Shown one piece after another: positions 5,607 to 19,538 of a stretch of DNA of 64,000 nucleotides. Source of the DNA: a bacterium (GTDB taxonomy: Bacteria > UBA8248). Location of the stretch: assembly GCA_965213685.1 (NCBI GenBank), contig CBDBZY010000051.1:32001-96000 (forward strand), in the 5' to 3' direction. Numbering within the stretch: position 1 is the stretch's first letter; each line of letters begins with the position of its first letter. The notes below the pieces were generated by a model. That model was not told the origin of the DNA, made no database searches, and saw nothing but the letters and a program-made list of their open reading frames with translations. The position numbers and the translations under genes are program-made.

Positions 5607-7876
<2,270 letters not shown>

Positions 7877-7990
7877 TGGAGCCGGTGACAGGGACACATG
7901 TTGTGTAGGCAAATGTAATAATAATTATACAAGTAACAGTTTTGAGCTGATGTATATATGTGCTGGTTCTGAGCTGATGTATTGCTATGA

Positions 7991-9909
<1,919 letters not shown>

Positions 9910-10053
9910 CTGGCTTGCATAAGGAATACAGAAATATTGGAACAGAAATATTGGAACAGAGTTGGGACAGGCAAGAGGGTGTGCTATATTTGGAAAAGTA
10001 GTAGGTAAGTTGTGCTCTGTTGCTGTTTCTTACGGATAGAATTGTGAGAGAGT

Positions 10054-10980
10054 ATGGTGTTCTTAACGCGCGTGTGGCGACACGGAGTGGCCGCACTCTC
10101 GGAAACCCTTGGCCACTGTGTACCTGCGCACAAGCCGCTATCTGAGGGCGATCTGCAGACCCTCGAGCGATTTTTACTGAGTTCCCGGAGGCTCTTTGTT
10201 ATGAGTGGGGCTGGTATCTCCACGGAGTCCGGGATCAAAGACTACCGCTCAGAGGCAGTAGGACTCTACGCTACCTCCTCGCACCGACCCACCACCATTG
10301 CAGATTTCCTTCGCAGCGCCGGCGTGCGGCAGAGGTACTGGGCCAGAAACACGACCGCCTGGCCTGTGTTCAGAGCCTTCACCCCCAACGTCTCCCACAC
10401 GTTCTTTGCAGCGCTAGAAAAGATGGGTCGCTTGCATTGGCTGGTGACACAGAACGTGGACCGCCTGCACCACAAGGCTGGGTCGCAGCGTGTTACTGAG
10501 CTGCACGGCAGCGTGTTCTCGGTGTCCTGCCTCTCCTGCAGACGCAGCGTCAGCAGAGAACAGCTCCAGGAGCGCATCTATCAGGAGAACCCCACATGGA
10601 ACGCCACGCCCGAAGGCTTTGCTCCTGATGCAGATGTGTTTGTGTCGGAAGAGGCGGTCCAGACCTTCACCACTCCGTTGTGCCAGCGGTGCGGGGGAGA
10701 CCTCAAGCCAGACGTAGTGTTCTTTGGGGACTCTGTTCCAAGGGAGAGAGTGGACTTCATCAACAGCCGTTTGGCGGAAGCTGACAGTTGTCTGGTGGTG
10801 GGTTCTTCTCTGGAAACGTATTCCTCTCTCAGACACATTCGCCATGCCACTGAGCTGGGCTTGCCCCTGCTCATTCTGAACATAGGCCACACTAGAGCAG
10901 ATGCATTTGCAGATATAAAGGTCTCTGGAAGATGTGGAGAGGCCTTTGACTGGCTTTCCAAGAGGCTGATGCTGGACTAA
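10054..10980 (+). CDS. SIRT4: NAD-dependent sirtuin 4, mitochondrial; intronless ORF
   Basis: GAGISTESGIKDYRSEAVGLY, RQRYWARN..AWP, LVTQNVDRLHHKAG, ELHG, the CxxC...CxxC zinc site and LKPDVVFFGD match class II sirtuins. Confidence 0.95.
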   Translation: MVFLTRVWRHGVAALSETLGHCVPAHKPLSEGDLQTLERFLLSSRRLFVMSGAGISTESGIKDYRSEAVGLYATSSHRPTTIADFLRSAGVRQRYWARNTTAWPVFRAFTPNVSHTFFAALEKMGRLHWLVTQNVDRLHHKAGSQRVTELHGSVFSVSCLSCRRSVSREQLQERIYQENPTWNATPEGFAPDADVFVSEEAVQTFTTPLCQRCGGDLKPDVVFFGDSVPRERVDFINSRLAEADSCLVVGSSLETYSSLRHIRHATELGLPLLILNIGHTRADAFADIKVSGRCGEAFDWLSKRLMLD

Positions 10981-11063
10981 ATATATTGTGTGCATACATA
11001 GTGATATATTATTATACTTGTACATTTATTATGGTGGCCCGAACTGTCTCTTGCAGGTGGCCG

Positions 11064-12308
11064 ATGATTAGTAGACTCAGCAGGTTATTACACGCTGGTG
11101 CACAGTGGGCGGCAATGGACCTGCAGTCTGTGGTGGGCCACCTGGAGGCCATCTCCCCCTCCTCCCGAGCAGAAAGCTGGGACAATGTGGGGCTGCTGGT
11201 AGAGCCTTCAGGAAACCCTGCAGTGCACAGCATAATGTTAACTACTGACCTGACGGAGGCGGTGATGGACGAGGCCGAGGGTGTGGGGGCAGGGCTGATA
11301 GTGTCTTACCACCCTCCAATATTTCACCCTCTGAAGAGGCTCACCCAGAACACAGCCAAGGAGAAGATTATTGTGCGAGCGCTAGAGCTGAAGATGGCTG
11401 TCTACTCCCCCCACACTGCCCTGGACAGCATTGAGGGAGGAGTAAATGACTGGCTACTTCAGGGGCTGGGGGAAGGCCAGGTGCAGGTTCTGAATGTCAG
11501 CATGCTTTCTCCTCACCCATCCAAACTACTGACTGTCCATGGGCTGGCAAAGGAGGCTGCACCAGGGCTGGTCCAGGGGAGAGGCGTGACCTCCAAACCT
11601 TCTCAAAGGTCCGTGCCTTCTGCCAGCAGCACAATGTACCCACTCACTTCTCCTGTTTGATGTGCAGTGACCCGTCTCTCTGTGACCTGGAGCTGACCTG
11701 CACAGATGCTGAGGTGGCCTCTCTGCTCCTCCACCTCCACACCACTGCACCCAACACTCACCTCTCGCTCCAATCCAGAACTCAGGTAGACAGTCAACAT
11801 CATGGCAGGTGCTGCATGTGCCAGAGCTAACCTAGTGCCTCTGGTGGCAGGTCCCAGTGGCAGGAGCAGGGCGAGTACTCACCCTCACTGAACCCGTGAC
11901 CCTCTCACAGTTGGTGAGCAGAGTCAAAGCTCACCTACATCTTCCCTACGTGAGGGTGGCCTGCCCAGCTGGCTGGAAAGAGGAAGCTACTCTTTCCACC
12001 ATAGCTGTGTGCGCTGGCTCTGGGGGTCGAGTCCTCAAGGATGTGGATGCTAATGTGTACCTAACAGGTTTGTTCCTCTAGTCCAGCCACAGGCTCTGCA
12101 ACGTGACCCTCTGCCCCCTGCAGGGGAGATGAGCCACCATGACGTGCTGGCAGCCACCGCCAGGGGAGTGGTGGTGATCCTGTGTGAACACAGCAACACA
12201 GAGAGAGGGTTTCTGCAGTCCTACTTGTCCCTCCTACAGGCCAGGCTAGCACCAACTGTGGCCATGGCTCTGTCAAAGAGTGATGTGGACCCTCTCACAG
12301 TTGTGTAG
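11064..12308 (+). CDS. NIF3L1: NIF3-like protein 1, multi-exon
   Basis: AESWDNVGLLVEP, LIVSYHPPIF, YSPHTALDS..GGVNDWL, IAVCAGSGG, YLTGEMSHHDVL and CEHSNTERGFL, ending at stop 12306-12308. An alternative start at 11115 is possible. Confidence 0.92.
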
Positions 12309-12468
12309 GGCTGTTCTCATATTGTGCTAGGTTAGAGTTACTATCTATGTTTATAGCTACTCTCACAATAATTGTGTAGTACTGTTTTATGTTATAAAAT
12401 TGTGCTAATTGATAGCTACAAACAAATACTCTGACATGTTCTGAGTGTTCTTTGGCTGGCTCTGGTGG

Positions 12469-19538
<7,070 letters not shown>

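What the first reader, a model, noticed from the sequence alone, without database searches (positions are those of the whole stretch)
9980..12308. SIRT4 nested in a same-strand 5'UTR intron of NIF3L1: possible splice-controlled two-protein transcription unit
Seen: a perfect donor AG|GTAAGT at 10005 lies 49 nt upstream of the SIRT4 ATG (10054). SIRT4 is a single uninterrupted ORF ending at 10980. A strong acceptor TGTCTCTTGCAG|G at 11056 lies 7 nt before the NIF3L1 ATG (11064). Only 83 AT-rich nt separate the two ORFs, with no AATAAA and little room for a promoter. The AGs before the SIRT4 ATG would give introns of only about 35-48 nt, shorter than others here. Inference: splicing 10005->11056 removes all of SIRT4 and makes NIF3L1 mRNA, whereas retaining the intron (or polyadenylating within it) makes SIRT4 mRNA. 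One promoter could therefore switch between two unrelated proteins. Both have basic, amphipathic-looking N-termini suggesting mitochondrial targeting. SIRT4 is multi-exon in vertebrates, so a processed copy may have inserted into the NIF3L1 leader intron and taken over its promoter.
Basis: partly seen in the sequence, partly recalled or inferred. Interest (0 to 1): 0.8.

Follow-up and report, generated by a model that had tools for sequence, protein, structure and literature searches.

The report
Conserved SIRT4–NIF3L1 gene pair in sponges
An intronless SIRT4 gene sits 83 bases in front of NIF3L1 on sponge DNA, a pairing kept in dozens of sponge lineages, but whether one spliced transcript switches between the two proteins could not be tested because no RNA data exist for this animal.

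Summary
The window is demosponge host DNA inside an assembly filed as a prokaryote.

New here: SIRT4 and NIF3L1 share the same contig in at least 40 other sponge-like lineages, 18 of them on contigs of 2.2-14 kb. SIRT4 is one uninterrupted ORF in all of them. So both the intronless state and the pairing are old, not a recent retrocopy insertion.

RNA-derived contigs from two relatives appear to run from SIRT4 sequence through the spacer into spliced NIF3L1. In one relative the RNA is colinear with the genome across the acceptor-like AG.

The proposed junction 10004/11057 could not be tested. The only four runs holding this locus are DNA.

My odds:
- about 0.4 for two tightly packed genes with abutting or overlapping transcripts, NIF3L1 starting in the AT-rich spacer;
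- about 0.08 for true bicistronic translation;
- about 0.04 for spliced-leader trans-splicing.

Interest is moderate. The conserved pair is new in print as far as one search shows. The mechanism remains open.

The parts
9864..10004 (+). Putative leader / promoter region of SIRT4. It has no ATG, holds a TATA-like CTATATTTGG at 9984-9993, and holds a direct repeat at about 9928-9958.
   Evidence: the ATGs in 9700-10053 are at 9780 and 9861 only. Sequence read. The transcription start is not known (inferred).
10003..10010 (+). Perfect 5' splice-site motif AG|GTAAGT.
   Evidence: the only match in the window on either strand; the only GT between 9860 and 11040 that matches at least 6 of 8 consensus letters. 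No variant among 4 individuals.
10005..10039 (+). Candidate 35-nt mini-intron ending in GGATAG|.
   Evidence: 18 nt shorter than the shortest of 11 verified introns, and TAG acceptors are 1 of 11. Variants at 10015 and 10034 in runs X3 and X4.
10054..10980 (+). SIRT4 coding sequence, one exon, 308 aa.
   Evidence: Catalytic His151 and Cys159/162/210/213 are invariant columns.
10981..11063 (+). 83-nt AT-rich spacer with a TATA-like TATATTATTATA at about 11005-11016 and an in-frame ATG at 11031.
   Evidence: Variants at 10988 and 11022. Its roles as poly(A) region and promoter are inferred.
11044..11057 (+). 3' splice-site-like motif CTGTCTCTTGCAG|G.
   Evidence: a CAG acceptor, as in 10 of 11 verified introns, with 8 of 12 pyrimidines. 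No variant in 4 individuals.
11064..11608 (+). NIF3L1 exon 1.
   Evidence: The start M aligns with M1 of the Geodia full-length protein.
11668..11785 (+). NIF3L1 exon 2.
11851..12067 (+). NIF3L1 exon 3.
12124..12308 (+). NIF3L1 exon 4, including the stop codon.
5607..7910 (+). LUC7L-like gene, 9 exons, 421 aa (neighbour).
8000..9660 (-). Unidentified multi-exon gene with coiled-coil-like pieces, divergent from SIRT4 (neighbour).
   Evidence: No Pfam match. The gene model is not verified.
12499..18626 (-). MED23-like gene, convergent with NIF3L1 (neighbour).

Best explanation
SIRT4 and NIF3L1 are an ancient head-to-tail pair of genes for two probably mitochondrial proteins, in a very compact demosponge genome.

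Most likely each gene makes its own mRNA. SIRT4 would start in the roughly 400-bp divergent promoter region before 10054 and end in the 83-nt AT-rich spacer. NIF3L1 would start in that spacer or in the last part of SIRT4. The two transcripts would abut or overlap, and read-through RNA would span both genes.

The pair would stay together for two reasons: the signals of the two genes interlock, and an 83-nt gap is a tiny target for rearrangement. On this reading the perfect donor at 10005 and the acceptor at 11056 are real motifs, but they are not shown to be partners.

What is shown:
- both gene models;
- the motifs;
- the compaction of the locus;
- the conserved co-location of the two genes.

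What is inferred:
- where the transcripts start and end;
- that RNA spans both genes in relatives.
For: Compaction. Convergent stops lie about 185 nt apart for NIF3L1 and MED23 and roughly 100 nt apart for LUC7L and the minus-strand gene.

Spacer. It is AT-rich with TATA-like runs about 59 nt before the NIF3L1 ATG. A similar TATA-like run lies about 69 nt before the SIRT4 ATG.

Conserved co-location.
- 42 of 118 NIF3L1 exon-1 hits share the exact contig length with one of 120 SIRT4 hits.
- 2 of the 42 are impossible by size, which is about chance level.
- 18 of the remaining 40 lie on contigs of 2,252-13,991 nt.
- Further shared contigs come from cluster members: 5448, 4130, 481697, 3743, 3933, 12843, 21661 and 100825.
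- Linked lineages are spread over the whole SIRT4 tree.

RNA in one relative. Fully spliced RNA-derived NIF3L1 ORFs (P0401, P0404) carry the same 13 upstream residues as the genomic ORF P0405. That RNA therefore runs unspliced through the AG before the start. P0404 sits on a 1,246-nt contig, which is the size of a single-gene mRNA.

RNA in Geodia. Contigs of 2279, 2332, 2386 and 2439 nt step by 53-54 nt, the size of retained NIF3L1 introns. The SIRT4 protein P0061 is on 4 contigs, the longest 2439 nt.

N-termini. NIF3L1 N-terminal extensions in 73 ORFs are 13.5% R+K and 0.8% D+E.
Against: - The unique perfect AGGTAAGT 49 nt before an intronless gene's ATG is hard to put down to chance, and this reading gives it no role.
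- The acceptor-like motif 7 nt before the NIF3L1 ATG is also left unexplained.
- A W codon (TGG) directly before the start M recurs in 5 other lineages with readable upstream frames, and two residues before it in the window and its sister species P0153.
- No promoter or poly(A) site has been mapped.
- The TATA-like runs are my own reading of an AT-rich stretch.
- Contig ends in short-read assemblies are poor markers of RNA ends.
Confidence: 0.4

Rival explanations
1. One promoter before 10004 makes a primary RNA that covers both genes. If the 1052-nt segment 10005-11056 is kept, SIRT4 is the first ORF. If it is removed, the short leader joins 7 nt before the NIF3L1 ATG and NIF3L1 becomes the first ORF. 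This is the layout of the cholinergic locus.
For: - The donor is unique and perfect. Only 1 of 11 verified introns has GTAAGT.
- It is the only strong donor between 9860 and 11040.
- The acceptor fits the local CAG consensus.
- There is no ATG in 9864-10053, and the spliced form would have 11064 as its first ATG.
- There is no AATAAA in the spacer.
- Neither motif varies among 4 individuals.
- Conserved linkage is expected if NIF3L1 depends on the SIRT4 promoter.
- RNA contigs that seem to hold both ORFs in Geodia fit the form that keeps the segment.
- The annotated Geodia model P0395 uses an acceptor directly before the NIF3L1 M.
Against: - No RNA exists for this organism.
- The intron would be 3.2 times longer than the longest of 11 verified introns.
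- In one relative the spliced NIF3L1 RNA is colinear with the genome across the AG before the start.
- The Geodia model comes from a pipeline that mixes ab initio prediction with evidence. It also fuses LUC7L, so its joins may be predictor artefacts.
- Same-strand nesting with a shared promoter is rare.
Confidence: 0.28
2. A true bicistronic mRNA. One capped RNA carries both ORFs, and NIF3L1 is translated from it by reinitiation or internal entry after the SIRT4 stop.
For: - RNA contigs of bicistronic size in Geodia, and contigs reaching several hundred nt upstream of NIF3L1 in a second relative.
- The only ATG in the spacer is in frame with NIF3L1.
- The linkage is conserved.
Against: - Reinitiation after a 308-codon ORF is inefficient by general knowledge of eukaryotic translation (recalled).
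- Assemblers fuse neighbouring same-strand genes whose ends overlap, so the contigs do not prove that single molecules exist.
- NIF3L1-only contigs of 1246, 1273 and 1521 nt exist.
Confidence: 0.08
3. An operon resolved by spliced-leader trans-splicing at the AGs before each ATG (10039 and 11056).
For: - An acceptor-like AG lies close before both start codons.
- The spacer is short and has no AATAAA.
- Spliced leaders are reported for glass sponges (passages read).
Against: - The passages read name hexactinellid sponges only and report no operons there.
- One search for spliced leader with hexactinellid and demosponge found only the glass-sponge paper.
- The RNA in one relative is colinear through the AG.
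- My motif scan of 4.9 Mb of sponge contigs for a leader-RNA-like gene gave 14 hits. Five of them are copies of one inverted-repeat element with 324 blast hits. The other nine were not followed up.
Confidence: 0.04
4. The donor belongs to SIRT4's own 35-nt 5'UTR intron (10005-10039). This could hold alongside the best explanation.
For: - GTAAGT is followed by a pyrimidine run, a CTTAC branch-like site and TAG at 10039.
Against: - It is 18 nt shorter than the shortest of 11 verified introns.
- The branch-like A is only 7 nt from the AG.
- TAG acceptors are 1 of 11.
- Two variants fall inside it in 2 of 4 individuals.
Confidence: 0.05

Closest known systems
Cholinergic gene locus (VAChT inside the first intron of ChAT, same strand, shared upstream exon)
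   Same: An intronless gene lies between a leader donor and the acceptor of the first coding exon of an unrelated but functionally linked gene. The arrangement is kept over long evolutionary time. The abstract of bioRxiv 10.1101/2021.03.29.437568, seen in the listing, says the locus structure is conserved from invertebrates to mammals. The other details are recalled.
   Different: Here no shared exon or junction has been seen. The 'intron' would be only 1 kb. The genes encode a sirtuin and a NIF3 protein. The clade is sponges.
Conserved microsyntenic pairs in compact genomes, held together by interlocked regulatory sequence
   Same: Two unrelated genes are kept adjacent in many lineages, with the signals of one lying in or at the other.
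   Different: The 83-nt spacing and same-strand order are at the extreme end. This pair was not found in print.
Spliced-leader operons (nematodes, tunicates, others)
   Same: Short same-strand spacers, and an acceptor just before the downstream ATG.
   Different: No leader is known for demosponges in the passages read. The RNA in one relative is colinear across the AG.

Membership tests
SIRT4 (class II sirtuin) | SIR2 catalytic domain over the whole core. | tested here: met
   Pfam PF02146 at 3.4e-49, profile positions 1-179 of 180.
SIRT4 (class II sirtuin) | Closest to Sirt4 rather than to other sirtuin classes. | tested here: met
   5oj7, which I recall as Xenopus Sirt4, at 4.3e-92. Next best are 8.5e-32 for archaeal and bacterial Sir2 and 1e-26 for SIRT5. 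Named relatives are Halichondria and Amphimedon sirtuin-4.
SIRT4 (class II sirtuin) | Catalytic His and four zinc-binding Cys. | tested here: met
   H151, C159, C162, C210 and C213 are invariant columns in 22 sequences. Their roles are recalled.
NIF3L1 (DUF34/NIF3) | NIF3 domain at both ends, with an insert in between as in animal NIF3L1. | tested here: met
   PF01784 positions 1-128 in exon 1 and 200-251 in exon 4. Colinear with Geodia and Nematostella proteins. The spliced ORF is 354 aa.
Same-strand nested gene with shared promoter (cholinergic-locus type) | A donor upstream of the nested ORF and an acceptor before the host's first coding exon. | tested here: met
   The motifs are at 10003-10010 and 11044-11057. 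This is sequence only.
Same-strand nested gene with shared promoter (cholinergic-locus type) | Transcripts that join the shared exon to the host exon. | not testable with these tools
   No RNA run is listed for the organism, and the laid contigs are DNA.
Spliced-leader operon | A non-genomic leader on the downstream mRNA. | tested here: not met
   This was tested in one relative only. RNA-derived ORFs P0401 and P0404 keep the genomic sequence upstream of the start.
Bicistronic mRNA | Single RNA molecules that carry both ORFs. | tested here: inconclusive
   This is inferred from the contig-length series 2279/2332/2386/2439 and from P0061 lying on 4 contigs. The contigs themselves could not be fetched, and assembly fusion is possible.

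The most novel reading that the evidence does not exclude
Across demosponges, SIRT4 and NIF3L1 form one transcription unit with a single promoter and a single 3' end. One alternative splice, from the leader donor to the acceptor just before the NIF3L1 ATG, decides which of two mitochondrial proteins is the first ORF. This would be a cholinergic-locus-type switch, hundreds of millions of years old, in an animal lineage without nerves and without known spliced-leader operons.
Probability: 0.25. Interest if true: 0.75.

Novelty: new member of a known kind. Interest (0 to 1): 0.45.

Why it matters
If the pair is only tightly packed, it is still a clean example of a gene pair kept together across many sponge lineages, and a useful marker for sponge comparative genomics.

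It also hints that NIF3L1, whose function is poorly known, works in mitochondria alongside a lipoamidase/deacylase sirtuin.

If the splice switch is real, it would show that splice-controlled two-protein units exist in early-branching animals. It would also give a simple system for studying how one promoter serves two proteins.

Tried and rejected
- RNA evidence. The look-up of sequencing runs did not complete 19 times and then listed 4 runs from one study. No RNA holder is listed. Laid on 9000-13000, they gave only genome-colinear contigs with no joints.
- Complex prediction with the Geodia SIRT4 and NIF3L1 alignments was counted but not folded. The tool does not pair such chains, so there is no result.
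- The search for related loci in metagenome contigs and in genome contigs returned only bacterial class II sirtuins at 49% identity or less. No sponge DNA from other species could be fetched, which left spacing, orientation and motif conservation unmeasured.
- A search of 42 genomes of the bacterium's family found no other host-type SIRT4.
- No NIF3 gene lies beside the sirtuin in the 162 fetched non-window loci searched, nearly all bacterial sirtuin loci. The pairing is therefore not inherited from bacteria.
- A donor-to-acceptor distance histogram and a survey of close same-strand ORF pairs were too noisy to use.
- MED23 homologues were too divergent to define introns.
- A scan for a leader-RNA-like gene gave 14 hits. 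Five of them belong to one inverted-repeat element family. The rest were not followed up.
- Rfam at gathering threshold gave 0 matches in the window.
- The idea that the Geodia RNA contigs start 18 nt before the SIRT4 ATG was dropped. The leading V of P0061 may simply be a GTG start chosen by a prokaryotic gene caller.
- 'VS' dipeptides upstream of SIRT4 starts, a possible trace of GTAAGT, occur in 4 of about 19 extended ORFs. That is too weak to count.
Full report
**What the window is**

The window is contig C51 (481,697 bases) of an assembly held as a prokaryote genome: 7.97 Mb in 71 contigs, 94% complete, 3.7% contamination. The assembly is a mixture. About 3 Mb are contigs of 61-69% G+C that are 76-100% covered by long ORFs (nearly all 84% or more). 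About 4.9 Mb are contigs of 42-54% G+C with 10-64% ORF cover, and C51 is one of these.

The SIRT4 protein of the window is 98% identical to unnamed database proteins. It is 62-67% identical to proteins named sirtuin-4 of the demosponges Amphimedon and Halichondria panicea. In a tree it falls inside a clade that also holds the Geodia cluster. So the window is demosponge host DNA binned with a symbiont.

**Checking the observation**

- AGGTAAGT at 10003-10010 is the only copy on either strand of the 64-kb window (1.31 expected over the whole window).
- SIRT4 is one 308-aa ORF, 10054-10980. It matches Pfam SIR2 at 3.4e-49 and the Sirt4 structure 5oj7 at 4.3e-92. The catalytic His and four Cys are invariant among 22 relatives.
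- The spacer is 83 nt, 63% A+T, without AATAAA.
- CTGTCTCTTGCAG|G ends at 11056, 7 nt before the ATG at 11064.
- That ATG aligns with residue 1 of full-length Geodia NIF3L1.
- The four exons join into one 354-aa ORF.
- The in-frame ATG at 11031 is not kept in the sister species P0153.

**Local splicing habits**

I verified 8 LUC7L introns and 3 NIF3L1 introns by joining exons and checking the frame and the match to Geodia proteins.

- Lengths are 53, 53, 56, 59, 61, 65, 70, 82, 139, 221 and 325 nt.
- Donors are mostly weak. One of 11 is GTAAGT, and none has the full AG|GTAAGT.
- Ten of 11 acceptors are CAG.

So the donor at 10005 is unusually strong and the acceptor at 11056 is typical. A 35-nt intron ending at 10039 would be shorter than any verified intron. 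A 1052-nt intron would be longer than any.

**Neighbourhood**

- LUC7L lies on the plus strand at 5607-7910.
- An unidentified multi-exon gene lies on the minus strand at about 8000-9660, divergent from SIRT4.
- MED23 lies on the minus strand and ends about 185 nt from the NIF3L1 stop.

Gaps between genes here are roughly 80-400 nt, so an 83-nt head-to-tail gap fits the local compaction. The minus-strand gene also argues against one transcript running from LUC7L into SIRT4 in this species.

**Main new result: the pairing is old and widespread**

No sponge DNA from other species could be fetched. I therefore compared the 'longest contig' lengths that the protein database lists for SIRT4 hits and for NIF3L1 exon-1 hits.

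- Of the 120 NIF3L1 rows, 2 had no contig length (P0357, P0376) and were dropped.
- Of the remaining 118, 42 share an exact contig length with one of the 120 SIRT4 rows.
- Two of the 42 (1154 and 1331 nt) are too short to hold both ORFs. They are taken as chance. A uniform model expects about 0.45 chance matches among the short contigs, and the real figure is probably somewhat higher.
- Of the 40 left, 18 are on contigs of 2,252-13,991 nt, so the genes there are close together. The others are on contigs of up to 2.5 Mb and show only a shared contig.
- Cluster members add further matches: the window's own species (4 of 4 contigs shared), the 91%-identical species (3933), and the Geodia cluster (12843, 21661, 100825).
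- On the SIRT4 tree the linked lineages are scattered through nearly all clades, including the earliest-branching one. That tree was built with FastTree and rooted on three bacterial sirtuins. 'Not linked' on it means only that no match appeared in the listed rows.
- All 120 listed SIRT4 hits are single ORFs of 278-387 aa that cover 83-100% of the query. In the linked cases NIF3L1 appears as an exon-1-sized ORF, so those contigs are genomic.

Intronless SIRT4 next to NIF3L1 is therefore ancestral to a large part of the sponges sampled. It is not a recent retrocopy.

No NIF3 gene lies beside the sirtuin in the 162 fetched non-window loci that were searched, nearly all of them bacterial sirtuin loci.

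**Geodia**

The annotated protein CAI7988994.1 (P0395, 857 aa) is a fusion of three parts:

- LUC7L;
- the first roughly 58 residues of SIRT4;
- one W, followed by NIF3L1 from its start M.

It shows that the same-strand order LUC7L, SIRT4, NIF3L1 is shared with the window. The annotation pipeline combined StringTie evidence with ab initio predictors (passages read), so the joins may be predictor artefacts.

JGI-derived proteins of the same cluster include fully spliced NIF3L1 and forms that retain introns:

| Protein | Form | Contig length (nt) |
|---|---|---|
| P0154 | fully spliced NIF3L1 | 2279 |
| P0393 | last intron retained | 2332 |
| P0415 | starts after intron 2 | 2386 |

The SIRT4 protein P0061 is on 4 contigs, the longest 2439 nt. 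The steps of 53, 54 and 53 nt fit three retained introns. A length of 2279 nt leaves 284 nt beyond the two ORFs.

I infer that these RNA-derived contigs carry SIRT4 and NIF3L1 together. There are caveats. I could not see the contigs. Assemblers fuse neighbouring genes whose ends overlap. Total-RNA libraries also contain precursors.

NIF3L1-only contigs of 1273 and 1521 nt also exist.

**A second relative**

The genomic ORF P0405 and the fully spliced RNA-derived ORFs P0401 (1962-nt contig) and P0404 (1246-nt contig) share the same 13 residues upstream of the conserved start. So that RNA is colinear with the genome through the AG that precedes TGG-ATG.

This speaks against obligatory cis- or trans-splicing at that site in that species. 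It fits transcripts that begin in, or read through, the spacer.

**Other points**

- A W codon directly before the start M recurs in 5 other lineages whose upstream frame is readable, and two residues before it in the window and its sister species. This is a weak hint of a conserved motif.
- NIF3L1 N-terminal extensions in 73 ORFs are 13.5% R+K and 0.8% D+E, against 9.3% and 11.2% in the rest of those ORFs. SIRT4 N-termini are 14% R+K and 4.7% D+E. Both look like mitochondrial presequences. No predictor was run.
- Within the 4.9 Mb of host DNA held, there is one host-type SIRT4 and no second copy of the locus. The rest of the host genome is not held.

**RNA for this organism**

After 19 unanswered tries, the run search listed 4 runs from one study, none on record as RNA. 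Laid on 9000-13000, they gave colinear contigs without joints, so they are DNA.

Among these four individuals there is no variant in either splice motif. Variants lie at 10015, 10034 and 10051 in the leader and at 10988 and 11022 in the spacer. These numbers are too small to argue for constraint.

**Interpretation**

The conserved head-to-tail pair is well supported (about 0.8). How NIF3L1 is expressed remains open.

The motif evidence favours the splice switch by perhaps 20-50 fold. Prior odds against so rare a layout are of similar size. The colinear RNA in one relative and the extreme compaction tip the balance slightly towards two ordinary, abutting transcripts.

| Reading | My odds |
|---|---|
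| Separate or overlapping mRNAs with read-through | 0.40 |
| Splice switch | 0.28 |
| Bicistronic translation | 0.08 |
| Spliced-leader operon | 0.04 |
| 35-nt SIRT4 leader intron (compatible with the first) | 0.05 |
| Something else | the rest |

**Literature**

- No paper in the searched library holds both SIRT4 and NIF3L1. Supplements were closed, and synteny tables there may list the pair.
- Spliced leaders in sponges are reported for hexactinellids, and no operons are reported there (passages read in PMC7986045 and PMC10282587; one further search).
- The cholinergic locus is the closest known layout (abstract in the listing; details recalled).

Noticed in passing
whole assembly G000 (window = C51:32001-96000): An assembly filed as one prokaryote genome is a mixture: about 3 Mb of bacterial contigs at about 65% G+C, and about 4.9 Mb of low-coding-density eukaryotic (sponge) contigs. 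Marker-gene contamination reads only 3.7%. Its relatives in the same genus are 2.9-4.6 Mb.
   Followed up: partly
relative: protein P0395 (CAI7988994.1, Geodia barretti): The public 857-aa 'NIF3-like protein 1' is a chimeric gene model that fuses LUC7L, the first roughly 58 residues of SIRT4, and NIF3L1.
   Followed up: yes
window 5607-7910 (+): A LUC7L-like gene with 9 exons. It has a long RS-rich exon (7335-7793) with repeated RSRSKERRP units, and a (GT)n microsatellite of about 150 nt inside intron 7 (about 7140-7290).
   Followed up: partly
window about 8000-9660 (-): A multi-exon gene with coiled-coil-like pieces and a possible signal-like N-terminus (start near 9657). It has no Pfam match. 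It shares a roughly 400-bp divergent region with SIRT4.
   Followed up: partly
window 9928-9958 (+): A direct repeat ACAGAAATATTGGA(A) occurs twice in tandem in the presumed SIRT4 promoter or leader.
   Followed up: no
window 11031 (+): This is the only ATG in the spacer. It is in frame with NIF3L1 and has A at -3 and G at +4. An RNA starting upstream of it would encode an 11-residue longer NIF3L1. It is not conserved in the sister species.
   Followed up: partly
G000 contigs C64 and C41 (e.g. C64:513297-513996): An abundant inverted-repeat (MITE-like) element of about 500 nt gives 324 blastn hits at E 1e-5 or better. The listed ones are all on C64 and four motif copies were seen on C41 and C64.
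   Followed up: partly
window 13691-13864 and 14000-14200: A long (CA)n/(GT)n microsatellite and a proline-rich ORF stretch lie on the minus strand downstream of the MED23 end.
   Followed up: no
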